A stretch of DNA of 64,000 nucleotides from a virus (lineage: Duplodnaviria > Caudoviricetes). The notes under the pieces were generated by a model. It had not been told where the DNA came from. It did no database searches and worked only from the letters and a program-made list of their open reading frames with translations. This document shows positions 39,321-54,831 of this stretch, in pieces. How positions within the stretch are numbered: position 1 is the stretch's first letter; every line of letters begins with the position of its first letter. The stretch lies in the IMG/VR virus record IMGVR_UViG_3300035498_000371, positions 128,001-192,000 of that record; one strand, 5' to 3'. The translations under genes and the position numbers were made by a program.

Positions 39321-39424
39321 AATATAACCATTCCTTTCTATTAAATTTACTTGAATGTGGTCAAAATACTTGTTTAACCTTAAAGATGAAACACAATATT
39401 AATATTCGAAAGGAGGCTGATAAT

Positions 39425-42400: not shown

Positions 42401-43756
42401 GTTGGTGTAAATAGGCAGACTACAATAAACCCTAATATTGTTGGCGGTAGAGGTTATTTTAAGCAATCTGATGAGGAGAATATGAGTGTTACTAATACTT
42501 TATGTATGACTGAGGCTTTATCTCCATTCGTTGTTACATCTGATGATCCATTCAGAAATGATATGACTTTCGTACAGACTGCTAAGCATTCTACACCAAT
42601 AGATTATAGTACTCCTATGCTGGTAACAACTGGAGCTGATGCTGCAATGCCATATTTATGCTCAAATATGTTTGCTGCTAAAGCAAAATCTAAGGGTACG
42701 GTTAAGGAAGTTACTAAAGATTATATGATTATCCAGTATGATAATGGAGAGAAAGATTATATAAATCTTGATGAACAAACTATGAAAAACTCTGATGGTG
42801 GTTTCTATATTTCTCTTCAATTAAAGACTGACCTCAAGGAAGGTTCTAAAGTAAAAGAAGGAGAAGTAGTAGCATACGATAGCAAATCTTTCTCTAAATC
42901 TGTTGGAGATAATAGACAGTTGGCTTATAATATGGGCTGTATGATTAAGGCTGCTGTTATGACTACAGAAGATGGATTTGAGGATTCTGGTAAATGCTCT
43001 GAATGGTTAACAGAGGCGATGTCATCAGACATTGTGGTTATGAAACCTGTAGATCTTCCCCCATCTACCAATATTTTATTCTTAATAAAGAAGGGTACCG
43101 AAGTGAGGGAAGGAGAACCAATCTTAATATTCCAGAATGCATATGATGAAGAAGACGCTAACGTTCTTCTTAAGAATCTTAATAATGAAGATGGAGATGT
43201 ATCAGAGATAGGAAGAAATGTAATCAAGTCTAAGGTTACTGGAGTTATTTCCGATATTAAAATCTATCGTACTTGTGAGATTGATGACCTTTCTGATAGC
43301 TTAAAGAAGATTGTAAAATCTAAAGAATCTGAAATTAATAGGCTTAAGTCTAAGTCTAAAGGAAGTGTTTCAGAGGTTCAGTTTGATTCTACTGAAAAAT
43401 TGCCTCAGAATGGTAAGCTTAAGAACTTAGATGGTGTTCGTATTGAGATATATATGAAATACCATGATCCATTATCTGTTGGTGATAAGATAGTCGTTCT
43501 TAATGCTAATAAGAACGTTCTTATGGACGTCTATGATGACGAAGATGCTCCTTATACCGATTATAGACCTAATGAAGCTATAGATCAGATTACTTCTGCC
43601 AGCTCAATGGATGGTCGTATGATTACTTCTATTATGAAGACTGGAGCGTTGAATAAACTTATGATAGAGTTAGCTAGACATGCTTGTGAAATGAATGGTC
43701 TTAAATGGAAAGATTTGCATGAAATTAGAGAAGACTATCTTAAAAATAACCAATAA
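39425..43756 (+). CDS. Phage multisubunit RNA polymerase beta-like subunit (probably virion RNAP), unsplit, with long N-terminal extension
   Basis: Beta motifs in order: FMRLRGNEK (cf. F.INGtER), STVGVNRQ, SPFVVTSDDPFRNDMTFVQTAKHS (cf. DDANRALMGSNMQRQA), LVTTG, DGFEDS (GYNFEDS), LSVGDKIVVLNANKNV (GDK.....NK), DGRMI (SRMN). ATG at 39425 after AAAGGAGG; promoter at 39390-39402. Confidence 0.9.
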   Translation: MLYLEDLKYMKLYKKKFYAPINKKNKKTGSAILLLTPNYDASKFLMNNPFMINRNAFISYYIEKDITYTINHESKYLEISYHDADTIALNEQAVYTESTDVQVISEMEEDYTINELYCKLGDSMIFFNELYDETILNEKGAYAEKYRKLLYYDRIRNNRDVLQLYKKIKEDNPWIKKTFIDYKRYKSFNLFIDLYYYNQIYLANNNYTIIKSIDMYLEFIRRFLTDKRIDTAGYTKKTIFIPVNFWGKKPGTMVYDYKNNLNPISIIYKKLRLSIEDLHALDGLEMVFFGNNGYFKFKTDDVTKQTHTKFLRFIKALEDNETIDDSDEPDNSPDGITTEIIDKLDTNRGIKIHNLTGNAESEEEQEQLKAELVKRISDASKTAANEDDVLDNLENDEFVKKVISDLGDDAEDNIKISAARATRITKAQDNFMKKSINNKSVKDMVNESNKPEELPETELPIETINEEWKHMKAINFEKEYDLDADIIKILNSLSDTNKEYPVSILDVKMEDTSTSEDSIYTYTVKCEDYSGKRFTLKFDIPKFRDNRFMRLRGNEKIFSIEMPLIPISKTDEDTVQIVSFYNKIFIERYNTSTGKSNPDAARFIKAMNKYSGSDIKVSVGDNTRICSKYELPIDYVDLASMYSKIEYSAKGGLLKDRFTIYFNQDELRKDIKNLNESEGLPVGLYNDGRVIYYVANEDNTFASFISVLLGDDFYESFRSQAKPKKCTYSRASILNTNIPVITILAHDLGLTKAMDIAGIDYDISEKRTPRSDEDDTIKLADGFIHYKSTYTSMMLMNGLKDCNMEDVQITELNSKITWVNILENFGGRIKSDGLTNFKDLMYDPITVEVSRDYKLPDNYHDALVYASNLLVDNKFTTHTDISTNRYRTNEVVAAQFYRVLSDSYKEYALQNKHGRKVPMSMKQSAVIDLILAQNTTSDLSVFQPLLEIETKNTISTKGVTGMNSERAYKIDKRGYDDSMVNVIAQATGFASTVGVNRQTTINPNIVGGRGYFKQSDEENMSVTNTLCMTEALSPFVVTSDDPFRNDMTFVQTAKHSTPIDYSTPMLVTTGADAAMPYLCSNMFAAKAKSKGTVKEVTKDYMIIQYDNGEKDYINLDEQTMKNSDGGFYISLQLKTDLKEGSKVKEGEVVAYDSKSFSKSVGDNRQLAYNMGCMIKAAVMTTEDGFEDSGKCSEWLTEAMSSDIVVMKPVDLPPSTNILFLIKKGTEVREGEPILIFQNAYDEEDANVLLKNLNNEDGDVSEIGRNVIKSKVTGVISDIKIYRTCEIDDLSDSLKKIVKSKESEINRLKSKSKGSVSEVQFDSTEKLPQNGKLKNLDGVRIEIYMKYHDPLSVGDKIVVLNANKNVLMDVYDDEDAPYTDYRPNEAIDQITSASSMDGRMITSIMKTGALNKLMIELARHACEMNGLKWKDLHEIREDYLKNNQ

Positions 43757-43837: not shown

Positions 43838-44467
43838 ATGGCTGATATTAAAAAAACTTTGCTTAAAAAGAAAGTTGCTGGCACTGTATATGGTCTTTAC
43901 CCAGAGACCTCTGCGGACATCGTTAAATATGGCGATTCCAGCACAGTCGCAGATGAGTTAGCAAAACTCATTGCTAAGATGGGCAATGGAGACGGAAGTG
44001 TATCTCAGGAGATCGCAGACGCCGTTGAGAAAGCTAAGAAAGAGTTGCTGGGTATTGACGAGACTAATACTCAGATTAACGAAGCTTATGATACATTGCG
44101 TGAGATCGCTGAGTGGATCACATCTGACGAGTCAGGTGCAGCTAAGATCGCTGCTGATGTTGCAGCTGTAACTAAGACTGTAAATGGTGACGGCGAGTCT
44201 GATACAGGTTTAGTTGGTGCTGTTTCTGATCTTAAGGCTGAACTCGATACAGAGGGTACTGGCGTTAAGGCTCGCTTAACAGCTGCTGAGGAGGATATCG
44301 ATGCACTTCAGGCAACAGTCGATACTAAGACTACTGGTCTTACAGACAAGGTTGCTGCATTAGAGGCTTCTTCTACACAGGTTAACGTTGTAGCTAGCGA
44401 CTTCGCTGAGTCTGAGATGAATGACAACGATATCTACTTCGTTGAGCTTGCAGCCTCTGCTTCCTAA
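43838..44467 (+). CDS. Putative fibre/collar-type virion protein (coiled coil; YPxTSA N-terminal motif)
   Basis: LKKKVAGTVYGLYPETSADIVKY; EAYDTLREIAEWI motif and heptad-rich stalk; promoter at 43765-43777. Confidence 0.6.
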   Translation: MADIKKTLLKKKVAGTVYGLYPETSADIVKYGDSSTVADELAKLIAKMGNGDGSVSQEIADAVEKAKKELLGIDETNTQINEAYDTLREIAEWITSDESGAAKIAADVAAVTKTVNGDGESDTGLVGAVSDLKAELDTEGTGVKARLTAAEEDIDALQATVDTKTTGLTDKVAALEASSTQVNVVASDFAESEMNDNDIYFVELAASAS

Positions 44468-44525
44468 CTTCCGCTTGGTAAGGTAATCAGAATATAGCAA
44501 ATAAGATTATTCTTAACTAAAAATA

Positions 44526-44556
44526 TCCTCCTAAGATACATTGTCTTAGGAGGATT
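44526..44556 (+). terminator. Hairpin (terminator or attenuator)
   Basis: ATCCTCCTAAGA-TACATTG-TCTTAGGAGGAT. Confidence 0.6.
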
Positions 44557-44573
44557 ATAAAGGCGGTGAATGA

Positions 44574-44840
44574 ATGGAAAAAGAGGTAGAACTCAGAAAG
44601 AAAGTGAATGGGTCTGCGTGTACTCTCTATCCAAAAACATCTGCCGAAAATGTTAAATATTCTAGCGACCAATCAGTAGCGGATATTTTATCTGGGATTC
44701 TTGCTGATATTAAACTTATCAAGGAGAATCTTGGTATAACGGAAGAAGTATATGCAAAAGATTCATCTGGCAATGTCTTAGATGACGGAAGTGGAACAAA
44801 TATCGTACTGTTGAGTAAAGCAACAGGCCTCTCCAATTAA
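44574..44840 (+). CDS. Small virion protein paralogous to the 43838 N-terminus
   Basis: LRKKVNGSACTLYPKTSAENVKY. Confidence 0.65.
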   Translation: MEKEVELRKKVNGSACTLYPKTSAENVKYSSDQSVADILSGILADIKLIKENLGITEEVYAKDSSGNVLDDGSGTNIVLLSKATGLSN

Positions 44841-44884
44841 TGAAGAAAATGATACGTTCTATGGTCGATAATAAAGCAGCATAA

Positions 44885-44910
44885 CCCTCTAGGCTTAATT
44901 GCCTAGAGGG
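44885..44910. terminator. Bidirectional terminator
   Basis: CCCTCTAGGC-TTAATT-GCCTAGAGGG between convergent genes. Confidence 0.75.
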
Positions 44911-44923
44911 ATATCTTCTGTTT

Positions 44924-45442
44924 TTATAAGCATACTCTTTTTACATTGGTTAAATCATCATGATTGATGATATCGGTAATCTTATCTACAGTATTGGCGT
45001 CAAGATAATGTAATGATTTAAGATAGACTATAATAGAGCCATGTGGTTCATTCTCTACAGCCCCAATCCATTTATCCCAGTTAGCAGCCTGAAGATCGAT
45101 AAAATCATTATCGTTACCACGTAGATACATTCTACCAATCCATTCTGCTTTACATTGCTTAGATGGATAAACTGTTACATAATCGATACCAGCATCTTCT
45201 AATGCTTTACGAACCTGAATGTGAGATGATACTAAGATTATATCAGCAGTATCAAGATTATCTTTAATATGCTGGATATAATTTGCAGGAAATTCAGGAT
45301 TACGTTCTTTTGTACCGTCTTCATGAATAATCCATGAGAATGAAGAAGAATCAGAGTCTAATACTCTTTTTCCTCTAACGGTATTTGTATAATAAGATTT
45401 ACCACATGCTGGATAAGTGCTAATTACTAAAGCTTTCTTCAT
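44924..45442 (-). CDS. P-loop nucleotide kinase-like protein
   Basis: N-terminal VISTYPACGKS Walker A variant, LDSDS, and RMYLRGN lid-like motif. Confidence 0.7.
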   Translation of the reverse strand: MKKALVISTYPACGKSYYTNTVRGKRVLDSDSSSFSWIIHEDGTKERNPEFPANYIQHIKDNLDTADIILVSSHIQVRKALEDAGIDYVTVYPSKQCKAEWIGRMYLRGNDNDFIDLQAANWDKWIGAVENEPHGSIIVYLKSLHYLDANTVDKITDIINHDDLTNVKRVCL

Positions 45443-45456
45443 ATATTTTCCTCCAT

Positions 45457-45909
45457 TTAATTTAGTTTACATACAACAATTTCTATATCCATATCATTGA
45501 ATACGCTATGAATTGCTTGGTAAACATCATCCCATCTTAATCTATCTAAACCACAACCAATGGCTGGCATAGCGACTTTAGTGATGTTATTAAGAAGGCA
45601 TGTCTGCCTCATATGAGATAACGCACCAATTAATGAATATATTGTAGGCTTATCCCAATAATGTATTTTAGTTACCAGATTAAGAACTCTTCCATCTAAT
45701 AAGCAATCTCCATATAGGATCTTATCATAATCATTATGATTAGATAAATAATCGGGATATTTTATCATAAGATTATTCTTGGTATTGAATCTCTTATTGA
45801 ATTCTACAGCGATCCCTCTACCCATACCGAAATCTGCGCTAATGCATTGAGCCAGATAATAATCTTCTGGCATTGAGAATAAATCTCTTATTTCTTCAGT
45901 ATATACCAT
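45457..45909 (-). CDS. Macro domain ADP-ribose glycohydrolase (TARG1/OARD1/DarG-like)
   Basis: LAQCISADFGMGRGIAVEFNKRF, LNLVTK..YWDKPT, AMPAIGCGLDRLRW..V: Poa1p/TARG1-type signature. Confidence 0.85.
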   Translation of the reverse strand: MVYTEEIRDLFSMPEDYYLAQCISADFGMGRGIAVEFNKRFNTKNNLMIKYPDYLSNHNDYDKILYGDCLLDGRVLNLVTKIHYWDKPTIYSLIGALSHMRQTCLLNNITKVAMPAIGCGLDRLRWDDVYQAIHSVFNDMDIEIVVCKLN

Positions 45910-46361
45910 TATTTATCCTCCTTAGATGGAGTTTTAAGATCTTCTTGCATCTTCTTAATCTGTTCTTCTGTATCAATGCCATCACGTTGGATTATCTGTA
46001 ATATAATTATCTTATTGCCAGCGTTATCCATCTTAACGTTGAAATCAATACTAACGACTGAACGATCATTCATTACAGCAAAATCAATCTCATAGCCAAC
46101 GCTATCGGCTACCATTAATTGTAATGGTAAATTTTTGAATACAACGATAATATTATCGTCATCATTTGTACCATAATTCATAGAATAATCATCAGTTTCG
46201 TCATTAATGAATGTAAGAACTAACCAACGTCTCCCAAAATTGGCAATACGAATAAGAATTTCAACCTCATCTGTTTCTCCATCTAAGCATATTGATCGCG
46301 ATTCCAATAACCTCTTAGACTGTTGAATAAATACTTCTGTAGATAAATCCACTTTACGCAT
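45909..46361 (-). CDS. Hypothetical protein
   Basis: ORF with AGGAGG SD and promoter CACA-TTTGAG-TAA at 46388-46400 (minus strand). Confidence 0.7.
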   Translation of the reverse strand: MRKVDLSTEVFIQQSKRLLESRSICLDGETDEVEILIRIANFGRRWLVLTFINDETDDYSMNYGTNDDDNIIVVFKNLPLQLMVADSVGYEIDFAVMNDRSVVSIDFNVKMDNAGNKIIILQIIQRDGIDTEEQIKKMQEDLKTPSKEDK

Positions 46362-46527
46362 AATTAAGACCTCCTAAAAATAAAATTTTACTCAAATGTG
46401 AGGCTTATGTTATTTGAGCAAAATTATCAACCTCTTTGGGTAACATCTAATTAATATCTGAAGGTGGGTCCGTGGAGCCATCCACTCCACAGATATGTAA
46501 AATCTACGAAAGGAAGGTAAAATCGTT

Positions 46528-47019
46528 ATGGCAATTAATAAAGCTACACTTGCAAAAGAGATTGATGGCGTCATTGAGTATATCTATCCAAAAACATCTG
46601 GTGATATAGTCGTGTATGATGAAACTCATAGCGTTAATGCTATGATTCAAAGTCTCTTAGAGAACAAAGTGGACAAGGAAGACAATAAAGGTCTTTCTGA
46701 GTACGACTTCACTAAGACGTACAGAGATAAGCTTGAAGGTATCGCTGCTGGAGCGACTAAAGTTGTTCTTGATAGCGAGTTATCTACAACAAGCGCCAAT
46801 GGTGTACAGAACAAAGTAGTTGCTAGCAGATTTTCTACAGTAGAAGAGAATGTTTCAGCCCTCCAGAAAACTGTTAGTGATCTGAGTAACGACACTGCAA
46901 CCAGTGATTCATTATCGAAGCTTACTGATAGGGTAAGTACTCTTGAATCGTTCAAAAATGACTTAGGAAGCGCTCTTACCGTATCAAACGGTCAGCTCTG
47001 CGCTATCTATGCACAATAA
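46528..47019 (+). CDS. Putative tail/head fibre-associated protein (YPKTS motif)
   Basis: IYPKTSGDIV, KVDKEDNKGLSEYDFT...KLEGI and LDSELSTTSANGVQNKVV are motifs common in phage fibre proteins; promoter at 46442-46454. Confidence 0.65.
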   Translation: MAINKATLAKEIDGVIEYIYPKTSGDIVVYDETHSVNAMIQSLLENKVDKEDNKGLSEYDFTKTYRDKLEGIAAGATKVVLDSELSTTSANGVQNKVVASRFSTVEENVSALQKTVSDLSNDTATSDSLSKLTDRVSTLESFKNDLGSALTVSNGQLCAIYAQ

Positions 47020-47039
47020 TTTAAAGGAGGAATAAAGAT

Positions 47040-47915
47040 ATGGCTACAACAGTTACAAAACCTATCATCTTAGACGAAACTGGTAACAAGATCGTCGATG
47101 CTATGGGTAACATTGTTACGTCACTTAATGATCTTAAAAAGATCCAGCTGGCTAATAACGCTGGCGCTCACAATGGTCTTTACCGTGGTAAAGACTTATC
47201 AAACACTTACACCGATACAGAGATTTATGATATGATTTCTACAGGAGATCTTTCTGACCTCTATGTAGGTGACTACTTCAAGAAATCTATCACTTCTACC
47301 ATCGGTGGAACAGAAGATATCGATGTTCAGATCGCAGGATTCAACCCTTACTACAACGTTGGAGATACTGCATTGACTCGTAACCATGCAGCCGTTGTCA
47401 CTAAAGACTGCGTTCAGACTTTGGCTCAGATGAATACCACAAACACAACTGTTGGAGGTTACGTTGCTACAGATATGTACAAGACTACATTACCTGCATA
47501 CGCTAACGCTTTACAGCAGGCTATCGGATCTACACACATCATCTCTCGTCGTGCTTTACTTACGACTGGTATTAATAATACAGATCAGTCTGCAGGAATT
47601 GGTACAGGGCGAAGCAATGCATGGTCTTGGTACGATGAATTAGTAGGTATTATGACTGAAGCAGAAGTATACGGAGCACCTGTATTTAGTTCATCAGGAT
47701 ATGATACAGGAGAAGCTTGCATCCAGTTACCTCTCTTTGCGTTGAATCCTTCGTCTAGGGTGGCAGGCAAAGGTAGAAATGGATCAAGACAGTGGTATTG
47801 GTTAAGAAGTATTGCTAATTCCACCTACTTCTGCCACGTCAACTACTATGGCTATGCCATCTACGGCAACGCGTCCGATGCTGGCGGCGTTCGCCTCCGC
47901 TTCCTGATCGGTTAA
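47040..47915 (+). CDS. DGR target protein: probable receptor-binding fibre tip with C-type-lectin-like C-terminal variable domain
   Basis: C-terminal QLPLFAL...WYWLRS...FCHV...G.A....AS...GVRLRFLIG is typical of CLec-fold DGR targets; the 3' end is the VR matching the TR. Confidence 0.9.
   Translation: MATTVTKPIILDETGNKIVDAMGNIVTSLNDLKKIQLANNAGAHNGLYRGKDLSNTYTDTEIYDMISTGDLSDLYVGDYFKKSITSTIGGTEDIDVQIAGFNPYYNVGDTALTRNHAAVVTKDCVQTLAQMNTTNTTVGGYVATDMYKTTLPAYANALQQAIGSTHIISRRALLTTGINNTDQSAGIGTGRSNAWSWYDELVGIMTEAEVYGAPVFSSSGYDTGEACIQLPLFALNPSSRVAGKGRNGSRQWYWLRSIANSTYFCHVNYYGYAIYGNASDAGGVRLRFLIG
47817..47904 (+). repeat. DGR variable repeat (VR) including the IMH end
   Basis: Ungapped 88-nt match to 49837-49924 with 12 mismatches, every one at a TR adenine. 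Confidence 0.97.
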
Positions 47916-47917
47916 TC

Positions 47918-48074
47918 GATGGGCCGTAGCCCCCTCGTGGGGCGTGGCCATCACTTAATGGATAAGGAAGGTCTAGCGGAAGGATAAAAGCCGTAGGCTT
48001 ATTTTCGCGCGAAGCGCCCGAAAAAATTTTAGGCCTTCCTAGATGAACCATTTTCGGTAAGTTTAGGAAGGCTT
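47918..48074 (+). promoter_or_regulatory. GC-rich hairpins downstream of VR (candidate DGR homing cruciform and terminator)
   Basis: GATGGGCC...GCCCC-CTCGT-GGGGC...GGCCATC (47918-47952); GCGC-GAA-GCGC (48007-48017); AGGCCTTCCTAGA...TTTAGGAAGGCTT followed by a T-run (48031-48074). Confidence 0.65.
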
Positions 48075-48943
48075 ATTTTATCATTTTCGAATTTATAGAC
48101 GCACTATGACCGAGTGATGTGGTTGCTAATTAAAACGTTGATATCGTGGAATTATTGTTGGATTTTTATTTTTGGTTATCATTTTATTTCTTTTTCATGA
48201 CGATATATTTGTATGATTATTTTATCTTTATATGAATTCGTATACTGATAGATGATTCTATATAAATCGTATAAATAATGAATGATTGTATAATAACTAA
48301 TCTTACATGATATAGAATATATTTGATAACTATCTTATATCTTATTTTAAAATAATGAATGATGGTATTTGAATATTAAACGAAGAGTATCTTAGTTCTA
48401 TATACGAAAATATAAGTGGTTAGATTTAAATATAGAATTAATTTTATTTTTTCATTTAATATCACACATTGTGCGGTATGTAAACTATTATTCATCTATC
48501 ATGTAATTAATGCATTTTAAGCATTAAAATAAATCTTATAAAGACTAAATAAGAGATTATTTAGCGATGGATATGGTATCACAATTGATACTAATTAAAT
48601 CCTATATTGTGATAAATATAATTCATTCAAACTAACTCTCTGAACAGATTTAAACTTTCTTTCTAACCTTGGTTACATTTCATAGAAATAAAATTTATTT
48701 GAAAACTGAATAGAGAAAAATGTAACTAAAAGAAATGAAAAATACTAGCAGGGATAAAGTAAAAGAATATTTAATATGCTACTTGTGATTTATTAATCAT
48801 ATTATAAAACGCTGTTGGATAATGTAATAGATCTTAATACTAATGGGCTTATGGATTGTTCTACTGGTCTTATAAATCACATTCAAGAAATAATAACTCT
48901 GGTGTAGATTAGATAAAGATAATGGGTATAATAATAACCGAAA

Positions 48944-48956
48944 TACATTATGGTAA
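48944..48956 (+). promoter_or_regulatory. Late-type promoter motif upstream of avd
   Basis: TACA-TTATGG-TAA about 27 nt upstream of the avd ATG. Confidence 0.6.
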
Positions 48957-48982
48957 ATTTATATGTATGGAGGCGATGAAAT

Positions 48983-49711
48983 ATGTCTGTTATTAAGAGA
49001 AAGAGAACTAAATCTAATTTACAAGCGCTGTATGATGCACAAAAAATGAGGACTAGCGTTAGCAGATTGATGCTAAAAGACTTCGGTGCGAAACCTAAAG
49101 TGAGAACCGTTGAGGATATTGCTAAGAATTATAAAATGAGTTCAAGAGATGCCGAAAAATATTTAGAGTTGACGAAGAAATATGGAATTACCACGACGTT
49201 GGAAGAGTTTCCATATTGGTTCGTCGATGATCTACGGAGATCGGTGTCGACATGTATGAGGGAGATGGCTGAGCATATTACGATTGCTAATAGTATTTAC
49301 CCAAATAGCATCTATGAATGCGATTTAAGAAGACAACATCAAGACATTGCCATCGGGCAATGCGAATTTTTATTACAAGAGTTGCAATATATAATGAGCG
49401 TAATACCATTGAACGTAAATAAATTGATGCCGTATGTGGAAATGGTTGAAAAAGAGATTGCTTTGCTTAAAGCATGGAGAAAATCCGACAATTCCACCAG
49501 GACAAGAATCATCAATAATGAAATCGAAAAGTATTCGCAGGCTCCACAACTGTTATATCCATATTTGCAATACTCTAATAATTATATTGGCCAATTTAAA
49601 CAACCATTGCAATCATATCCTACAATGGTAGAGCAGCCCATAATGGAAAAGCGTATCATGTGCGTCATAGTTCCAAAGAAATCGCCTTATAAATCTTGTA
49701 GTTCTCATTAG
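48983..49711 (+). CDS. avd: Avd-like DGR accessory protein with a C-terminal extension
   Basis: Lies just upstream of TR/RT. MSVIKRKRTKS...ITIANSIYP...RRQHQDIAIGQCEFLLQELQYI...EIALLKAWRKSD is typical of Avd-like four-helix bundles in Bacillota DGRs. Confidence 0.85.
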   Translation: MSVIKRKRTKSNLQALYDAQKMRTSVSRLMLKDFGAKPKVRTVEDIAKNYKMSSRDAEKYLELTKKYGITTTLEEFPYWFVDDLRRSVSTCMREMAEHITIANSIYPNSIYECDLRRQHQDIAIGQCEFLLQELQYIMSVIPLNVNKLMPYVEMVEKEIALLKAWRKSDNSTRTRIINNEIEKYSQAPQLLYPYLQYSNNYIGQFKQPLQSYPTMVEQPIMEKRIMCVIVPKKSPYKSCSSH

Positions 49712-49836
49712 AGAGCGAATGTTGTTATTGTTGTAAGTACTACTGCGCGTATGCAGATTGGTATGAATTCGAACATTACTGTGATGGATTTACTAGCTCC
49801 ACTTCCATCGTTGTTACAGGGATTCAACTTGTTAAA

Positions 49837-49924
49837 AATTCCACCAACTTCTGCAACGTCAACAACAATGGCAATGCCAACTACAACAACGCGTCCAATG
49901 CTAACGGCGTTCGCCTCCGATTCC
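49837..49924 (+). ncRNA. DGR template repeat (TR) within the avd-RT intergenic RNA
   Basis: AAC/AAT-rich copy of VR; in the VR frame it reads NSTNFCNVNNNGNANYNNASNANGVRLRF. Followed by a spacer with hairpins, e.g. 50060-50087. Confidence 0.95.
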
Positions 49925-50126
49925 ATTTTGCGGTACTACGAGTAGAAGTCTCTGAATGGAGCTTCGATACCGTAACTCGGAAGGAAGTTGAGTCCTGTCC
50001 GCAAGGCGAATTTATAATATGATGCTATTTTGATACGTCACAGTGGCTATTACATATTAGCGGGAGTGGTCACTAGATCACTCCGCATATCTTATGCACT
50101 GCTATACGAATGGAGGGTAATTATGA

Positions 50127-51272
50127 TTGATAGAACTGATAACAGACGCTAACCATTTGCATGAATCCTTCTTGAAATGCAAGCAGGGTACTGACTGGAA
50201 GGAGTCTGTACAACGGGCTAGCCTGAATGAATTGAAAAATATTTATCATAAACAGAAAAGCCTGCAAGAACATGCTTATAGTCAGATGCCTTTCTATGAG
50301 TTTAATATAATGGAACGTGGTAAAGAGCGTCATATAAGATCGCTTCATATTACTGACCGTATGGTTCAGAGATGTGTATGCGATTTTATACTATTACCAG
50401 AACTATCAAAATATCTTATTTATGATAACGGAGCATCTCTCCGTGATAAAGGAATTGGATTTACAAGAGATAGATTGCACCAGCATCTATGGAATTATTA
50501 CTGCAATTATGGCCCTGAAGGATATATTCTATTGATCGATTTTCGTAAGTTCTTCGATAATATCGATCATGAGCTTCTATTAGAAGCAATAAAGAAAAAG
50601 ATCAAAGATCCAGAAGTGATTGAACTAATCACTTATCTGGTAAGTACTTTTGCTATAGATGTATCTTACTTGTCTGAAGAGCAGTATGAAGAGTTCAAGA
50701 GTGAAATATTTGACTCGATGTCTTATGAGCCATATCATGAAAGAACTGGAGAGAAGTTGTTGTATAAATCCCTTGGAATGGGTAGTCAGATATCTCAAAT
50801 TTCTGGTATTTATTATCCAACTCCTATAGATAATTACTGTAAAATTGTTCAGGGTTGCAAGTATTATGGAAGATATATGGATGATACTTATATCATTCAT
50901 CATGATAAAGAATATTTAGTTTGGTTATTGGAACAGATTAAGTCTATCTGTTGGGATTTAAGGATTTATATAAATCTTAATAAAACACAAATCCAAAAAT
51001 TGGATCATTTCACCTATCTTAAAGTGAAGTATACTATGACCGATACCGGTAAAGTTATTAAGAGAGTAGCGAGCGACTCTGTTACAAGAGAGCGTCAGAA
51101 ACTTAAGACTTTTAGAAATCTTTTATTAGATGGATATATGACGATTGATGAAATCATTAATCAATATAAGTCTTGGAGAGGTGGAATATTACATCTTGAT
51201 TCATATAGAACCATTCAGAATATGGACGCCATATTTCTGGAATTATTCGGTATAAACATCGAACATGTTTAG
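50127..51272 (+). CDS. DGR reverse transcriptase
   Basis: ERGKERHI, DRMVQR, IDFRKFFDNIDH, LGMGSQISQ (DGR-type G.GxxxSQ), YGRYMDD; TTG start. Confidence 0.95.
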   Translation: MIELITDANHLHESFLKCKQGTDWKESVQRASLNELKNIYHKQKSLQEHAYSQMPFYEFNIMERGKERHIRSLHITDRMVQRCVCDFILLPELSKYLIYDNGASLRDKGIGFTRDRLHQHLWNYYCNYGPEGYILLIDFRKFFDNIDHELLLEAIKKKIKDPEVIELITYLVSTFAIDVSYLSEEQYEEFKSEIFDSMSYEPYHERTGEKLLYKSLGMGSQISQISGIYYPTPIDNYCKIVQGCKYYGRYMDDTYIIHHDKEYLVWLLEQIKSICWDLRIYINLNKTQIQKLDHFTYLKVKYTMTDTGKVIKRVASDSVTRERQKLKTFRNLLLDGYMTIDEIINQYKSWRGGILHLDSYRTIQNMDAIFLELFGINIEHV

Positions 51273-51299
51273 TAAATACTTTAAAGGAGGTAATTAACA

Positions 51300-51611
51300 A
51301 TGGATAAGAAAATTACTTATACTATTGCATTTGCTGATGGAGCATCATTCGGTCCCGCCGAGCTTAACGGCAACAACTATGTTGTTTCTGGCGATGTAAG
51401 CGATGCTGTAAACGCAGCAAGTAAAAAATCTGTAACTGTAGACGGCAGTGATGGATCACATGTAGAGTTCAAGAATGCTACTGTAAACGCAAACGTAGTT
51501 GGCGGCGATACATATCTCTTTATCGAAGAGGAATCTGAGTCTAAGAGATATGAAGACTCCGTAGAGGCTCGTTTAACGTATCTTGAAATGATGATTGGAG
51601 GTACAGAATAA
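51300..51611 (+). CDS. Hypothetical tail-fibre-associated protein (XkdW-position gene)
   Basis: ELNGNNY motif and C-terminal EARLTYLEMM helix, directly before an XkdX-like gene. Confidence 0.55.
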   Translation: MDKKITYTIAFADGASFGPAELNGNNYVVSGDVSDAVNAASKKSVTVDGSDGSHVEFKNATVNANVVGGDTYLFIEEESESKRYEDSVEARLTYLEMMIGGTE

Positions 51612-51748
51612 TGAGTAAATTCGAGAAAGTACAGTATTTCTATGATAGAGAACTGTGGACAATCAGTCAGGTTAAAGATGCTGTTGCTAAGGGATGGATT
51701 ACAGCAGCTCAGTACAAAACAATCACTGGAGAGAAATACGAGGCATAG
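51611..51748 (+). CDS. XkdX-family small protein (45 aa; not in ORF track)
   Basis: MSKFEKVQYFYDRELWTISQVKDAVAKGWITAAQYKTITGEKYEA: XkdX pattern (Y..glW....V..aV.kgwIT..qY..ITGe.Y); TAATG overlap with the previous gene. Confidence 0.85.
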   Translation: MSKFEKVQYFYDRELWTISQVKDAVAKGWITAAQYKTITGEKYEA

Positions 51749-51786
51749 TTCTCATATTGCAGTGAAATAATTAAAATGCGATGAAT

Positions 51787-51822
51787 GCGGGAGTGCTTAA
51801 TTGCACTCCCGTGTTTATTTTG
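51787..51822 (+). terminator. Rho-independent terminator closing the fibre/DGR unit
   Basis: GCGGGAGTGC-TTAATT-GCACTCCCGT followed by a T-rich tract. Confidence 0.8.
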
Positions 51823-51878
51823 TAAAATAAATAGATTAAGACTTTTTAATAAATAATATAGTTAGGAGGTCTTATTTT

Positions 51879-52766
51879 ATGATTACTTGTACTGAAAGCG
51901 GTAAAGGTTTTACTAAAGGTGATATGTATCTTAAAAGTACTATCGAACGTATTCTTACAGAAGGATGTCTTGATGAGAATCCAAGACCTAAATACAAAGA
52001 TGGAGTTCCGGCTCATACATTATCGGTTAACCATGAGATGCAGACTTATGATCTTGCTAATGGAGAATCTGGGTTTACTACACTAAGACCGGTATCTTTA
52101 AAGAGTGCTATTGGGGAGATCTTATGGATCTATCAGGATCAGTCTAATGATCTTGATTTACTTAAAGATAAGTATGGAATTACATGGTGGGATGAATGGG
52201 ATATTGGAAATCGCACCATTGGTTCATGCTATGGTGAAACTATAAGAAGACATGACCTCATGAATAATCTTCTTGAAGGAATCAAGAATGATCCAGATGG
52301 GCGTAGACACATTATCACAATGTGGCAGGTTGATGATTTCAAAGATAAGCATGGATTAAAACCTTGCTGCTATCAGACAGTATGGAATGTACGTCATGGT
52401 AAAGATGGAGTTACATACTTAGATATGTGCATGTTCCAGAGATCATCTGATTTTCTTGTATCTGGAACTATCAATTGTTTACAGTATACAGCATTATTGT
52501 ATATGGTTGCTGGACATTTTGGTTATACTCCAGGAAGGTTTACTTGGTATAACGCCAATGTACAGATTTACGATCGTCACCAGGAACAGGCTAATATCTT
52601 ATTAGAAAGAGAGCCGATTATATTTGATACTGGTAAACATCCTCATTTTGAGGTTGAACCTAAGAATTTCTACGACTATACTGTAGATGATATCAAAATC
52701 ATTGGTTATCCAATGAAAGAAGTTAAAGAAAAGAATCCTCAGCTTAAATTTGATCTTGGTATTTAA
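51879..52766 (+). CDS. thyA: Thymidylate synthase (ThyA)
   Basis: RRHIITMW, catalytic LKPCC, QRSSD, Asn in GTINCLQY (dUMP-specifying position), QIYDRH. Confidence 0.92.
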   Translation: MITCTESGKGFTKGDMYLKSTIERILTEGCLDENPRPKYKDGVPAHTLSVNHEMQTYDLANGESGFTTLRPVSLKSAIGEILWIYQDQSNDLDLLKDKYGITWWDEWDIGNRTIGSCYGETIRRHDLMNNLLEGIKNDPDGRRHIITMWQVDDFKDKHGLKPCCYQTVWNVRHGKDGVTYLDMCMFQRSSDFLVSGTINCLQYTALLYMVAGHFGYTPGRFTWYNANVQIYDRHQEQANILLEREPIIFDTGKHPHFEVEPKNFYDYTVDDIKIIGYPMKEVKEKNPQLKFDLGI

Positions 52767-52773
52767 TCATCAA

Positions 52774-52805
52774 AAGAGGGTTACAATTCAGTAACCCTCT
52801 TCTTT
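52774..52805 (+). terminator. Rho-independent terminator
   Basis: AAGAGGGTTAC-AATTCA-GTAACCCTCTT. Confidence 0.8.
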
Positions 52806-52825
52806 AATTTGAAAGGAGAGTATTT

Positions 52826-53791
52826 ATGGGCTTATTTAATATTCTTAAAGATAAACTTAGAGTTACAAATGAAAATAACGTCATAGAAGACGATACAAAG
52901 CTATATACACAAGTAATTTATAATACGTTCAATAATTTTGTTGTATTAATATCTTATTCTAGCGATTATGCTACTCAGGTAGTAGAATTTCTTGATGCTT
53001 GTAATACAGCAGGATTGAAATTTATTACAATGCAATCTTCTTATGAATCAGACAGAGATGAAGAAGATAATGAAGAAGAACAGAAAGAAGAAGAGTTTGC
53101 TATCCGTCCAGAGAAAATACAACATCAGAGGCAATATATAGTTCTTTCTGGAAATATTCATACTTACTCTGGAATCTATAGTTGCATTGATGCTCTTTCT
53201 AATGATATTCTTCTTGCAGTTCAGGATGATATTTATAATAACTGCAGTTCTACATATTTCAATGAGCATATCAAGAATGGAGTATTGAACTTCAATGAGT
53301 TTAAGTATAGAAAGATTGCTCCTCAATATGATAAAGAAATCTCTTTAGAGACAACGTATTATAAAGAGACTTTATTGTTTAATAATCCTAGAGCAATTAT
53401 GTCTAAATTACCATCTGGATTTATGGAGAAGGACATTCTTCAGATTATCAGAATTCATAAACTAAACGATGATTATGGATTCTCAATGCTTAAACTGCTA
53501 AAAGATCAATACGATTCCAATAAATGCGACGATCATTTCATAAAAGATTTCTCAGATGTATACTCTATGGTAATTGGAGATATAACAGAGGAAAAGATTC
53601 ATAGGCTTTTATTTATGCCTAAATACACACTTCAGGATGATGATATATTTATCGGTGATGTAGATGATGAAAGATTAGATGATATCTTCAGGCAGCATTA
53701 TGATAAATTTACTGGAGTGACTGACGATTCATTAAACTATATGGATATAGATGAGATCTTAAAGGAGGGAGAGGAAAATGGCAACGGATAA
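52826..53791 (+). CDS. Hypothetical protein
   Basis: Long ORF with SD. Confidence 0.7.
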   Translation: MGLFNILKDKLRVTNENNVIEDDTKLYTQVIYNTFNNFVVLISYSSDYATQVVEFLDACNTAGLKFITMQSSYESDRDEEDNEEEQKEEEFAIRPEKIQHQRQYIVLSGNIHTYSGIYSCIDALSNDILLAVQDDIYNNCSSTYFNEHIKNGVLNFNEFKYRKIAPQYDKEISLETTYYKETLLFNNPRAIMSKLPSGFMEKDILQIIRIHKLNDDYGFSMLKLLKDQYDSNKCDDHFIKDFSDVYSMVIGDITEEKIHRLLFMPKYTLQDDDIFIGDVDDERLDDIFRQHYDKFTGVTDDSLNYMDIDEILKEGEENGNG

Positions 53792-54392
53792 TATAGATAT
53801 AGATGATGTATGTAGTAAATTCGACTCGTATTTCGTTGCAGAAAAACAGAATCAGATTGATAAAAGATATAGGGCATCTTCTGATATAATATTCTCTGAT
53901 GGTAAATTTGATCATCATATTAATTCTGAAGGATATATTGTGATAGAGAATGTAAGAGATGCTAATTATCTTATATTTACCGATCAAACCGGAGATGTAA
54001 GATTAATTATATACCAGAATACGCCGTCATTTAAGTTTAAAGATATTATTGACAGATGTAATCAAATTAGAGAAACCACTGGGGAAATTAAATCTGAAGA
54101 TAAGAATGATAATTCTGATATAAAGATATCTGAAAGGCTCATAGATATCAACACGTTTGTATGCCCAACGTGCAATGGTAAAATGACTTTAATTAAGCCT
54201 AAAAGTACCAGTGAAACTATAGTTGCATATTGCAAGAAATGTAATATAGAATATGTATTAGTCCCGTCAAAGTATTACGTTATAAAAGCCCAAAAACAGT
54301 TCTATAATTCCACCAATGAAAGACATACTATGGTGGAAAATATCATATCAAAGAAAGGAAGTAATAAAAATGAGCGAAGTAATAAGAATTAA
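53778..54392 (+). CDS. Hypothetical protein with zinc ribbon
   Basis: CPTC...CKKC. Confidence 0.65.
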
Positions 54393-54831
54393 GTATTTTG
54401 GAGATCAGGAACCAATCGAGAAAATTCCTAATGGAGATTGGATTGATCTTCGTGCGGCAGAAGACGTTGCAATTCCTGAGAAGGAGTTTAAATTAATCCC
54501 TCTTGGAGTGGCAATGCAGTTACCTGTTGGGTATGAGGCGCATATCGCACCTAGAAGTTCTACGTTTAAGAAATGGGGAATCATTCAGACTAACTCTGTA
54601 GGAGTAGTCGATGAATCATACTGTGGGGATAATGATCAGTGGTTTATGCCAGCTTTCTGTTTGCGTGGGGATTATGTAAACGATAACGGAGAACACTTCT
54701 CTTGCATCCATAAAGGCGATAGAATTTGCCAGTTCAGAATTGTTAAGAAACAGCCTGAAGTAGAATTCGAAACTGTTAACGTACTCGGTAATGAGGATCG
54801 TGGAGGTATTGGCTCTACAGGAACCAACTAG
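54370..54831 (+). CDS. dut: Trimeric dUTPase
   Basis: Motifs I-V: [31 protein letters not shown]. Confidence 0.92.

What the first reader, a model, noticed from the sequence alone, without database searches (positions are those of the whole stretch)
47040..51748. Complete, apparently intact DGR embedded in the tail-fibre module of an RNAP-encoding jumbo phage
Seen in sequence: VR 47817-47904 and TR 49837-49924 align without gaps over 88 nt. All 12 mismatches are at TR adenines (A>T x5, A>G x5, A>C x2). Three more A-only differences extend the match about 5 nt upstream. TR carries 12 AAY codons, giving up to about 15^12 (~10^14) variants from those codons alone. avd and an RT with LGMGSQISQ/YMDD are intact. 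The avd-TR-RT block sits between the fibre-tip target and the XkdW-position/XkdX genes that normally follow a fibre gene directly. Established: DGRs hypermutate receptor-binding CLec domains (Bordetella BPP-1 paradigm) and are best known from temperate phages. Inference: this AR9/phiKZ-type jumbo phage, probably lytic and transcribed by its own RNAPs, uses retro-mutagenesis to diversify its host range during a lytic cycle.
Basis: partly seen in the sequence, partly recalled or inferred. Interest (0 to 1): 0.85.

Follow-up and report, generated by a model that had tools for sequence, protein, structure and literature searches.

The report
Two-target DGR in a jumbo phage
A 239-kb phage that carries its own RNA polymerases holds a complete diversity-generating retroelement that rewrites the tips of two lectin-like proteins, and its helper protein Avd bears the same short docking tag as the phage's DNA-replication enzymes, which may give a handle on how the mutated copy gets back into the DNA.

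Summary
VR (47817-47904) and TR (49837-49924) align without gaps. All 12 differences lie at TR adenines (P about 8e-8). The RT, Avd, TR and a C-type-lectin-fold target are intact.

New here:
- A second VR lies 78 kb away, outside the window (genome 99114-99200). All 16 of its differences are at TR adenines. The scan had noted it separately as an orphan target.
- Both VRs are followed by a GC hairpin with a CTYGT loop that is conserved in relatives. The TR has none.
- avd has its own AR9-late-type promoter motif.
- Avd has a disordered tail carrying the phage's MCx[IV][IV] terminal tag. DnaB, RNase H, DNA ligase and PolB carry the same tag. A close relative (G006) carries the tag on a different Avd lineage.
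- Five jumbo contigs carry related DGRs, and the cassette has been exchanged between them.

The host genome is an AR9/PBS1-type jumbo phage. "Tail-fibre module" holds only for a small islet. "Lytic" is not established, because relatives encode tyrosine recombinases. Public reads do not cover the VR, so current activity is untested. The scan had already found a DGR in another jumbo phage (e1-1940988).

Verdict: a real DGR and a new variant of a known kind, of moderate to high interest.

The parts
46489..46500 (+). ACA-N6-TAA promoter-like motif 39 nt before the fibre-shaft-like gene
   Evidence: The motif occurs 63 times on the sense strand against 8 on the antisense in the 80 nt upstream of 237 genes (shuffles 13.1 +/- 3.6), peaking 30-39 nt before starts. 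It resembles the AR9 late promoter AACA-N6-T[A/G] (PMC5312081).
46528..47019 (+). 163-aa fibre-shaft-like protein (fib163)
   Evidence: It matches a 'tail repeat-like protein' of Vibrio phage vB_VmeM-32 (52% over residues 40-85) and PHROG 38190 of unknown function. G006 has a 408-aa homologue with the same N-terminus directly before its own DGR target.
47040..47915 (+). DGR target 1, 291 aa, with a C-type-lectin-fold C-terminal domain
   Evidence: AlphaFold model: pLDDT 81.6. VIA-align hits: 9qa6 Z 14.2, 4eps Z 7.4, DGR target TvpA 2y3c Z 6.4, and dozens of CTLDs at Z about 5. Weak DUF6273 hit. Homologues are annotated as tail fibre or structural protein in Lactobacillus phage JCL1032 and Roseburia phage Shimadzu.
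47812..47904 (+). VR1 (variable repeat), the last 29 codons of target 1
   Evidence: 12 of 12 core mismatches to TR lie at TR adenines, plus 3 further A-only differences upstream.
47922..47949 (+). GC-rich hairpin after VR1 (GGCC..GCCCC[CTCGT]GGGGC..GGCC)
   Evidence: Fold. Hairpins with CTYGT or TTTAT loops and covarying stems follow the VR 15-57 nt downstream in 17 related loci. None follows the TR.
47988..48072 (+). Three terminator-like hairpins with T runs
   Evidence: Fold and the sequence.
48076..48944 (.). AT-rich gene-free spacer (18-29% GC), unexplained
   Evidence: No ORF of 35 aa or more. No protein or DNA match. Only weak repeats. One of two gaps over 600 nt in the genome.
48945..48956 (+). 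ACA-N6-TAA promoter-like motif 38 nt before avd
   Evidence: The same motif precedes avd in G002 and G003.
48983..49711 (+). avd, 242 aa: four-helix-bundle core with an inserted segment and a disordered C-terminal tail
   Evidence: PHROG Avd 7e-7. Alignment with 133-aa to 298-aa Avd relatives. Model helices at 10-34, 78-103, 110-140 and 145-186; the tail has pLDDT under 50. Foldseek 2rld/2gsc, probability 0.99.
49655..49672 (+). IMCVIV tag in the Avd tail
   Evidence: MCx[IVYM][VI] occurs 10 times in the last 30 residues of 237 proteins against 4 times in 58,530 inner residues. It is the top hit of an unbiased C-terminal motif scan, p 2.8e-8. The tag is also on the tail of G006's Avd.
49832..49924 (+). 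TR (template repeat), 27 adenines, 12 AAY codons
50015..50060 (+). Conserved stem-loop of the DGR RNA between TR and RT
   Evidence: RNAalifold on 10 related cassettes: 19 pairs, of which 13 show compensatory changes; conserved sequence blocks flank the structure.
50127..51272 (+). DGR reverse transcriptase, 381 aa, TTG start 9 nt after GGAGGG
   Evidence: The best solved relative is the 328-aa RT chain 8ub7, 4.8e-8, whose IGSLTSQ aligns with MGSQISQ.
51300..51611 (+). 103-aa protein of no known family (p103)
   Evidence: No Pfam, PHROG or NCBIfam hit. A 25%-identical counterpart lies between RT and XkdX in L014.
51611..51748 (+). XkdX-family protein, 45 aa
   Evidence: Pfam PF09693, 5.1e-17.

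Best explanation
This is a functional BPP-1-type diversity-generating retroelement resident in an AR9/PBS1-type jumbo phage. The avd-TR-RT unit is probably transcribed from its own phage late-type promoter by the phage RNA polymerase. The RT, with Avd, copies the TR RNA into cDNA and misreads adenines. The cDNA then overwrites two variable repeats that each carry a GC-rich 3' end and a conserved hairpin. VR1 lies in a fibre-tip-like C-type-lectin protein beside the cassette. VR2 lies 78 kb away in a second lectin-fold protein. The 12 AAY codons can give about 10^14 variants of each ligand-binding surface. Shown here: the repeats, the A-only pattern at both VRs, intact proteins and folds, the conserved cis elements, and the phage type. 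Inferred: which polymerase transcribes the unit, that the targets bind host receptors, and that mutagenesis is still going on. The Avd tail carries the phage's replisome-type docking tag, which suggests the DGR complex is brought to the same hub as helicase, ligase, RNase H and polymerase.
For: A-only mismatches occur at both repeats: VR1 12 of 12 and VR2 16 of 16 (P 8e-8 and 9e-11). The two VRs differ from each other at 11 sites, all TR adenines. All 61 non-A positions are identical in the three copies, although the two target proteins are only 30% identical. RT, Avd and target are intact, with the expected families and folds. A hairpin with a conserved CTYGT loop follows both VRs and the VRs of 17 relatives but not the TR. 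The RNA structure between TR and RT is conserved and covarying. The promoter-like motif is enriched fivefold upstream of genes in all four jumbo genomes tested (G000 and G001-G003) and lies 38 nt before avd. The Avd tail carries the MCx[IV][IV] tag, and so does the independently derived Avd of G006. Tag carriers include DnaB, RNase H, NAD ligase and PolB. Related DGRs with A-only VRs occur in four other RNAP-encoding jumbo genomes.
Against: There is no population data. The four public runs that hold this phage have it at 2-9x as short contigs, and none covers VR1, so current activity is not shown. Receptor binding by either target is inferred from fold and from homologues' annotations only. 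Target 2 lies among non-structural genes (RNAP beta, HNH, RtcB). NCBIfam gives no Avd hit, and the Avd assignment rests on PHROG, a homology chain, fold and position. The promoter assignment is by analogy with AR9.
Confidence: 0.8

Rival explanations
1. Relic cassette: the DGR was acquired by horizontal transfer and worked in the past, but it no longer mutagenises in this phage, and the VR differences are frozen history.
For: The cassette is clearly mobile. G000's RT, target and Avd are nearest to those of the distant G001-3 group (52-56, 44-49 and 44-47% identity, the top-ranked similarities) and not to those of the close relative G006 (43, 39 and 28%, against a genome mean of 50%). No read data show ongoing variation. 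The RT uses a weak TTG start shadowed by an out-of-frame ATG.
Against: All ORFs and cis elements are intact. VR2 lies 78 kb away in an island absent from G006 and still matches the resident TR at every non-A base, so homing has occurred in this genome lineage after the TR reached its present sequence. Avd has gained the lineage's own tag and a phage promoter motif.
Confidence: 0.12
2. Assembly chimera: the DGR block belongs to another, smaller phage and was joined to the jumbo contig by mis-assembly.
For: The nearest cultured RT relatives are small Firmicutes phages (Roseburia phage Shimadzu 40%). The target-avd-TR-RT-p103-XkdX order also occurs in a 35-kb phage. A VR can break assemblies: in G003 the VR lies at the contig ends.
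Against: VR2 lies 78 kb away in the same contig and matches this TR. Avd carries the genome-wide tag, and avd and fib163 carry the genome-wide promoter motif. Four other RNAP-encoding jumbo genomes have the same arrangement. Short contigs from four separate freshwater runs match both the cassette and its flanks at 97-100% identity.
Confidence: 0.02
3. The targets, or at least target 2, are not receptor-binding virion proteins. They would be diversified binders with another role inside or outside the cell, for example binding variable host defence or surface molecules. This is compatible with an active DGR.
For: Target 2 sits between an RNAP beta gene, an HNH endonuclease and RtcB, in a 5-kb island lacking structural neighbours. 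It has no late promoter motif within 80 nt. Two-target phage DGRs whose second target has an unclear role are described (PMC10743442).
Against: Both targets share the C-terminal lectin domain. Homologues of target 1 are annotated as tail fibre or structural protein, and it is flanked by a fibre-repeat protein and XkdX.
Confidence: 0.3

Closest known systems
Bordetella phage BPP-1 DGR (mtd-avd-TR-brt)
   Same: The gene order is target-VR, avd, TR, RT. Differences are adenine-specific. The VR lies at the 3' end of a C-type-lectin-fold gene, with a GC-rich 3' end and a hairpin downstream of the VR. The RT has the [ILVM]GxxxSQ and YMDD motifs.
   Different: The host genome is a 239-kb phage with its own multisubunit RNAPs. 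There are two targets, one of them 78 kb away. A 1.07-kb spacer, with terminators and a separate promoter-like motif, lies between target and avd. Avd is nearly twice as long, with an insert and a tagged disordered tail.
DGRs of small Firmicutes phages (Roseburia phage Shimadzu, Acutalibacter phage Fontainebleau; IMG/VR contigs L005-L018)
   Same: These are the nearest RT (40% to Shimadzu; 43-49% to the contigs), Avd and target relatives. They share the 170-180-aa Avd type with an insert and the hairpin loops. L013, L014 and L018 also have XkdX (L014 also a p103-like gene) after the RT.
   Different: These are 5-71 kb contigs, one of them a complete 35-kb genome. The target-avd gap is about 60-110 nt. 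Avd has no C-terminal tail or tag. No RNAP genes were found in the two tested, G004 and G005.
Two-target phage DGRs nd4/nd12 (Baykov et al. 2023, PMC10743442)
   Same: One TR serves two lectin-fold targets of different architecture, and the second target's role is unclear.
   Different: There the targets lie in small gut phages and near the cassette. Here the second VR is 78 kb away in a jumbo genome. No tentaclin (N-terminal lectin plus Ig domains) architecture is seen: the lectin domain is C-terminal in both targets.
AR9/PBS1 and MarsHill-type jumbo phages
   Same: RNAP beta-type genes are split and 30-32% identical. An early-promoter-like TTATATATTATAA motif and a late-like ACA-N6-TAA motif are present. 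The Shine-Dalgarno sequence is Firmicutes-type.
   Different: The MarsHill-type phages (the AR9-like group for which a paper examined an RT) have a retron-like RT explicitly without Avd, TR or VR (bioRxiv 10.1101/2020.12.14.422802). [quoted passage not shown] This phage also encodes ThyA-like and dUTPase-like genes, unlike what is expected for uracil DNA.
Sliding-clamp client peptides (T4 gp45 clients, PIP-like tails)
   Same: A short shared peptide sits on floppy termini of polymerase, ligase, RNase H and helicase-type proteins.
   Different: The reader protein is not identified and binding is untested. No DGR component has, to my knowledge, been reported to carry such a peptide.

Membership tests
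Diversity-generating retroelement (DGR) | TR/VR near-repeat whose differences fall only at TR adenines | tested here: met
   VR1 12 of 12 and VR2 16 of 16 mismatches at A; P 8e-8 and 9e-11.
Diversity-generating retroelement (DGR) | RT next to TR with the DGR-type motif [ILVM]GxxxSQ and YxDD | tested here: met
   MGSQISQ aligns with IGSLTSQ of the 328-aa RT 8ub7. YMDD is present. RVT_1 3.6e-12. NCBIfam has no DGR-specific hit; the best is a group II intron RT, below its cut-off.
Diversity-generating retroelement (DGR) | Accessory protein Avd (four-helix bundle) between target and TR | tested here: met
   PHROG Avd 7e-7. Alignment to 133-aa Avd types. The model matches 2rld/2gsc at probability 0.99, TMt 0.65-0.81. 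There is no NCBIfam hit.
Diversity-generating retroelement (DGR) | VR encodes the ligand-binding face of a C-type-lectin-fold domain at the C-terminus of the target | tested here: met
   Model pLDDT 81.6. TvpA Z 6.4, and a long run of CTLDs and FGE-type folds at Z 4.3-7.4. The Z values are middling, but the list is uniform.
Diversity-generating retroelement (DGR) | Target-site elements at the 3' end of the VR (GC-rich IMH-like end plus hairpin) that are absent from the TR | tested here: met
   Both VRs end in GGCGGCGTTCGCCTCCGCTTCC followed by a hairpin with a CTCGT or CTTGT loop. The TR lacks the hairpin. The element is conserved in 17 relatives. Function was not assayed.
Diversity-generating retroelement (DGR) | Ongoing A-specific variation of the VR within a population | tested here: inconclusive
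   Four runs hold the phage only as short contigs at 2-9x, and none covers 47670-47936.
AR9/phiKZ-type jumbo phage with multisubunit RNAPs | Genome over 200 kb | tested here: met
   One contig of 238,843 bp. The close relative G006 is 248,905 bp with direct terminal repeats.
AR9/phiKZ-type jumbo phage with multisubunit RNAPs | Split beta/beta'-like RNAP genes | tested here: met
   Window 39386-43756, PHROG RNAP beta 1.5e-133. L001 4869-6152 (-), 2.8e-46. The tblastn best hits are Staphylococcus, Listeria and Bacillus PBS1-type phages at 30-32%.
AR9/phiKZ-type jumbo phage with multisubunit RNAPs | AR9-like early and late promoter motifs | tested here: met
   TTATATATTATAA copies lie 15-100 nt before genes. 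ACA-N6-TAA: 63 sense against 8 antisense. Compared with PMC5312081. Transcription itself was not measured.
AR9/phiKZ-type jumbo phage with multisubunit RNAPs | Uracil in place of thymine in the DNA (AR9/PBS1 only) | not testable with these tools
   ThyA-like (2e-55) and dUTPase-like genes are present, which argues against it but does not settle the question.
PBSX-type fibre gene set (XkdV-XkdW-XkdX) | XkdX family protein after the fibre genes | tested here: met
   PF09693, 5.1e-17.
PBSX-type fibre gene set (XkdV-XkdW-XkdX) | XkdW family protein | tested here: not met
   The 103-aa protein matches no Pfam, PHROG or NCBIfam family.
Clamp- or replisome-hub client peptides | The same short peptide on disordered termini of unrelated replication proteins | tested here: met
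Clamp- or replisome-hub client peptides | Binding of the peptide to a clamp or other hub protein | not testable with these tools
   The reader protein was not identified here. This needs a pull-down or a co-structure.

The most novel reading that the evidence does not exclude
In this jumbo-phage lineage the DGR has been wired into the phage's own machinery. avd-TR-RT is transcribed by the phage's non-virion RNAP. Avd's added tail docks the RT-Avd-cDNA complex onto the same replisome hub (a clamp-like protein or another partner) that recruits helicase, ligase, RNase H and polymerase. Mutagenic retrohoming into VR1 and VR2 would then be coupled to phage DNA replication during the infection cycle. 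Two unrelated Avd lineages acquired the same tag, which points to selection for this coupling.
Probability: 0.3. Interest if true: 0.85.

Novelty: new variant of a known kind. Interest (0 to 1): 0.62.

Why it matters
DGRs are well known, but published surveys of jumbo phages report none. [quoted passage not shown] The RT of the nearest cultured group was judged not to be a DGR (bioRxiv 10.1101/2020.12.14.422802). Here at least five RNAP-encoding jumbo genomes carry DGRs, which appear to have been exchanged as cassettes.

The more useful point concerns mechanism. How DGR cDNA is put back into the VR "remains unknown" (bioRxiv 10.64898/2026.07.21.739853). Here Avd has twice acquired the terminal tag that this phage lineage puts on its replication enzymes. 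If that tag recruits the DGR complex to the replisome, it gives a direct and testable link between retrohoming and replication. It also gives a natural system in which one tag can be removed to test the link.

Tried and rejected
- **Read test for VR polymorphism.** The look-up of sequencing runs gave only four freshwater runs, each holding 6-7% of the words and kept as Logan contigs. When laid, they hold 151-334-nt pieces at depth 2-9. None lies on 47403-47936, so nothing can be said about VR variation.
- **Complex prediction.** I tested the Avd tail (residues 185-242) with the 190-aa ORF beside the PolB-like gene. The result was no answer, score 0.00, and controls were not run. This is no evidence either way. 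That the ORF is clamp-like comes only from an earlier AI note and was not verified; Pfam gives nothing for it.
- **Rfam.** A scan of 44000-54000 gave only a sub-threshold csRNA match at 51785-51880.
- **Spacer 47916-48982.** I found no remnant of a target paralogue, no match to the relatives and no strong repeat.
- **Early-promoter motif.** There is no good copy before avd, the target or the RT.
- **Tag in G001-3.** An unbiased scan found no terminal motif standing out there, so their long K/E-rich Avd tails remain unexplained.
- **Foldseek on the target model.** This was unclear apart from 9qa6. The lectin fold came out only with VIA-align.
- **NCBIfam.** It gave no DGR-specific family for Avd or the RT.
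- **Megablast of the locus against GenBank phages.** It found only an 80-nt TR-like stretch in Acutalibacter phage Fontainebleau.

Full report
**Observation.** The repeat pair is as described. Window 47817-47904 (VR1) and 49837-49924 (TR) align without gaps over 88 nt. There are 12 mismatches, every one at a TR adenine (5 A>T, 5 A>G, 2 A>C). Three more A-only differences lie at 47814-47816. TR has 27 A among 88 bases, so the chance that 12 random mismatches all hit A is 8.5e-8.

**The genes of the cassette.**
- Target 1 is 47040-47915 (291 aa).
- The accessory gene is 48983-49711 (242 aa).
- The RT is 50127-51272 (381 aa). It starts at a TTG, 9 nt after GGAGGG.
- A 103-aa gene and a 45-aa XkdX gene follow.
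- The RT hits RVT_1 (3.6e-12) and the PHROG reverse-transcriptase family (7e-63). Its best solved relative is the 328-aa RT chain 8ub7 (4.8e-8), where IGSLTSQ aligns with MGSQISQ. YMDD is present. From memory, 8ub7 belongs to the Bordetella phage bRT-Avd series. The tool gives only the name "Reverse transcriptase".
- The accessory protein hits the PHROG "Avd protein of DGR" (7e-7, residues 70-174). It aligns with classical 133-aa Avd proteins through a chain of 180-aa forms. Its model is a helical bundle that matches the Avd-like proteins 2rld and 2gsc (probability 0.99, TMt 0.65-0.81).
- The target model (pLDDT 81.6) gives a uniform list of C-type-lectin folds. These include the DGR target TvpA (Z 6.4) and a Bacteroides fimbrial tip protein (Z 7.4). 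The best match is the N-terminal domain of an IgA peptidase (Z 14.2).

**A second, remote target.** The window is bases 128001-192000 of a single 238,843-bp virus record. A search of the whole record with the TR found a second VR at genome 99114-99200 (L001 7114-7200), 78 kb upstream and outside the window.
- It differs from TR at 16 positions, all TR adenines (P 9e-11).
- VR1 and VR2 differ from each other at 11 positions, all TR adenines.
- The 61 non-A positions are identical in all three copies.
- VR2 ends a 299-aa protein (L001 6324-7223) that is only 30% identical to target 1 and shares its C-terminal lectin domain (DUF6273 1.8e-5; PHROG 21980 7e-17).

Two such diverged genes cannot keep 61 of 61 non-A bases identical to the TR by descent. 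Both must have been overwritten from this TR in this genome lineage. The scan had noted this gene separately as an orphan target (e1-5496636). The link to this TR is made here.

**Cis elements.**
- Both VRs end in the same GC-rich stretch. A hairpin follows 17-28 nt later. After VR1 it is GGCC..GCCCC[CTCGT]GGGGC..GGCC (47922-47949). After VR2 it is GTAATCGCTCCGC[CTTGT]GCGGAAAGCGATTAC (z -5.3).
- In 17 related loci the VR is likewise followed by a GC hairpin, 15-57 nt downstream. The stems differ, but the loops are mostly CTTGT, CTCGT or TTTAT. The TR has no such hairpin. This matches the hairpin/cruciform element known to direct homing in BPP-1 (established knowledge).
- The 200 nt between TR and RT hold conserved blocks and a stem-loop (about 50015-50060). 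In an alignment of ten cassettes, 13 of its 19 pairs show compensatory changes.

**What surrounds it.**
- Upstream of target 1 lies a 163-aa protein with a tail-repeat-like segment.
- Homologues of target 1 are annotated as tail fibre or structural protein in Lactobacillus phage JCL1032 and Roseburia phage Shimadzu.
- Downstream are p103, which matches no family, and XkdX (Pfam 5e-17).

This is a fibre islet, not the tail module. Its neighbours are a 1456-aa RNAP beta-type gene (39386-43756), a minus-strand block with a phosphatase-like gene, and then ThyA-like and dUTPase-like genes. The 4181-aa tape-measure-like gene lies at 7658-20203. The same order (target, avd, TR, RT, p103-like, XkdX) occurs in L014, a complete 35-kb phage.

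Between target 1 and avd lie three terminator-like hairpins and then about 0.9 kb at 18-29% GC. This stretch has no ORF, no protein remnant and no relative. It remains unexplained.

**The phage.**
- RNAP beta-type genes lie in the window and beside target 2.
- The nearest cultured relatives of the large RNAP subunit are Staphylococcus (SA1, MarsHill, S6), Listeria LPJP1 and Bacillus PBS1-type jumbo phages, at 30-32% identity.
- TTATATATTATAA copies, close to AR9's early consensus, lie 15-100 nt before genes.
- ACA-N6-TAA, close to AR9's late AACA-N6-T[A/G], occurs 63 times on the sense strand of the 80 nt before genes. It occurs 8 times on the antisense strand and 13 +/- 3.6 times in shuffles, and it peaks 30-39 nt before the start codon.
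- A copy of this late-type motif lies 38 nt before avd and another 39 nt before fib163.
- The motif is enriched to the same degree in the three jumbo relatives tested for it (G001-G003), and it precedes avd in two of them.

The AR9-type reading is therefore supported. It is a reasonable inference, not shown, that the phage's late RNAP transcribes avd-TR-RT separately from the target.

**Lifestyle.** No tyrosine or serine recombinase is found in the record. However, G006, G002 and G003, jumbo relatives with related DGRs, each encode a Phage_integrase-family protein. "Probably lytic" is therefore open. DGRs in virulent phages are in any case already described (PMC8143477; crAss-like phages).

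**Relatives and history of the cassette.** Related RTs were found in IMG/VR, mostly on 5-70-kb contigs, but also on four jumbo contigs:
- G001 (220 kb), G002 (244 kb) and G003 (229 kb), with RTs 52-56% identical.
- G006 (249 kb, direct terminal repeats), with an RT 43% identical.

All four jumbo contigs have the RNAP, and all have A-only VRs. G003's VR lies at the two ends of its contig, as if the assembly broke there.

G006 is the close relative: 150 of 237 proteins are shared at a mean of 50% identity, and the RNAP is 67% identical. G001-3 are distant: about 50 proteins are shared at 29%. Yet G000's RT, target and Avd are its most similar proteins to G001-3 (52-56, 44-49, 44-47%). They are below the genome mean against G006 (43, 39, 28%). 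G006's cassette also sits at another place in its genome. In an RT tree built before G006 was found, the four jumbo RTs then in hand (G000 and G001-3) group together (93/90) inside a radiation of small-phage RTs. The cassette has thus been exchanged or replaced among jumbo phages. Target 2 lies in a 5-kb island, together with RtcB, that G006 lacks.

**The Avd tail.** Avd here has a 55-residue disordered tail (pLDDT under 50) that small-phage Avd proteins lack. The tail contains IMCVIV. First-stage notes had flagged this as a tag shared with other proteins (e1-5496647, e1-5496656, e1-5496617). I tested the claim as follows.
- MCx[IVYM][VI] occurs 10 times in the last 30 residues of the 237 proteins, against 4 times in 58,530 inner residues.
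- An unbiased scan of C-terminal patterns ranks MC..V first (p 2.8e-8), three orders of magnitude ahead of the first unrelated pattern.
- Carriers confirmed by Pfam or a family search are a DnaB-like helicase, RNase H, an NAD-dependent DNA ligase (on an N-terminal extension), an HTH protein and a PolB-like protein.
- G006 uses the same tag (9 C-terminal and 4 N-terminal copies against 4 inner). Its Avd also ends in a tail with LDMCKIVDKK. Yet that Avd is only 28% identical to G000's, and its nearest relative is a different, tail-less small-phage Avd (L018, 49%).

At the inner-residue rate, a given protein has the tag in its last 30 residues about twice in a thousand. Two Avd lineages both having it is therefore very unlikely by chance. 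No tag stands out in G001-3. The reader of the tag is not identified, and the one complex prediction I ran gave no answer.

**Mechanism, and how sure each step is.**
- Shown: the parts list and the A-only rewriting of two targets from one TR.
- Well-founded by analogy with BPP-1: RT and Avd copy the TR RNA with adenine misincorporation, and the cDNA replaces VRs marked by the GC-rich end and hairpin.
- Inferred: transcription by the phage late RNAP, receptor binding by the targets (weaker for target 2), and present-day activity.
- Hypothesis: the tag brings the Avd-RT complex to the replisome, so that homing is coupled to replication. That step of DGR biology is stated to be unknown (bioRxiv 10.64898/2026.07.21.739853).

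**Novelty.**
- A comparative study of 224 jumbo phages reported no FGS (C-type-lectin-fold) domains, the kind diversified by RTs in several phages (PMC7824862).
- The RT of MarsHill-type phages was judged not to be part of a DGR.
- The large DGR survey does not mention jumbo phages (PMC8144416).
- My other text searches found no report of a DGR in a jumbo phage.
- The scan itself had found a DGR in another jumbo phage (e1-1940988).

The DGR as such is a known kind. The two-site targeting, the separate promoter and spacer, and above all the tagged Avd make this a new variant.

Noticed in passing
L001 6324-7223 (genome 98324-99223; VR2 at L001 7114-7200): The second DGR target lies outside the window, in a 5-kb island (target 2, 280-aa and 183-aa proteins, RtcB, and two more genes) that the close relative G006 lacks. 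The island sits beside an RNAP beta gene and an HNH endonuclease.
   Followed up: yes
window 48076-48944: A gene-free spacer of about 0.9 kb at 18-29% GC lies inside the DGR. It is one of only two gaps over 600 nt in the genome. It has no homology to anything fetched, and its function is unknown.
   Followed up: partly
whole genome G000 and G006: A terminal MCx[IV][IV] tag is found on DnaB-like helicase, RNase H, NAD ligase, PolB-like, HTH and HNH-like proteins, and it is shared by G000 and G006. Its reader protein is unidentified.
   Followed up: partly
window 51879-52766 and 54316-54831: ThyA-like (Pfam 2e-55) and dUTPase-like genes occur in a phage whose RNAP and promoters resemble the uracil-DNA phages AR9/PBS1. 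The DNA may contain thymine or a modified base rather than uracil.
   Followed up: no
window 7658-20203: A 4181-aa ORF carries tape-measure-like and endolysin-like segments (PHROG).
   Followed up: no
L077 967-4257 (genome 106967-110257): A 1096-aa protein joins endonuclease, kinase/ATPase-like and acetyltransferase-like segments and ends in an acidic tail.
   Followed up: no
G003 contig ends (L039, L040): The VR of the related 229-kb phage is split across the two ends of its contig, with overlapping but non-identical copies. This would be expected if VR heterogeneity broke a circular assembly.
   Followed up: partly
G006 192857-193342; G002 88722-89207; G003 12878-13366: Tyrosine-recombinase (Phage_integrase family) genes occur in three jumbo relatives that carry DGRs. 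None is found in G000.
   Followed up: partly
window 50112-50152: The RT starts at a TTG. An out-of-frame ATG (50123), closer to the Shine-Dalgarno sequence, opens a 9-codon ORF. This may lower RT translation.
   Followed up: no
genome 57879-60655 (-): The PolB-like gene appears split into several pieces with intervening ORFs, possibly introns, inteins or homing-endonuclease insertions.
   Followed up: no
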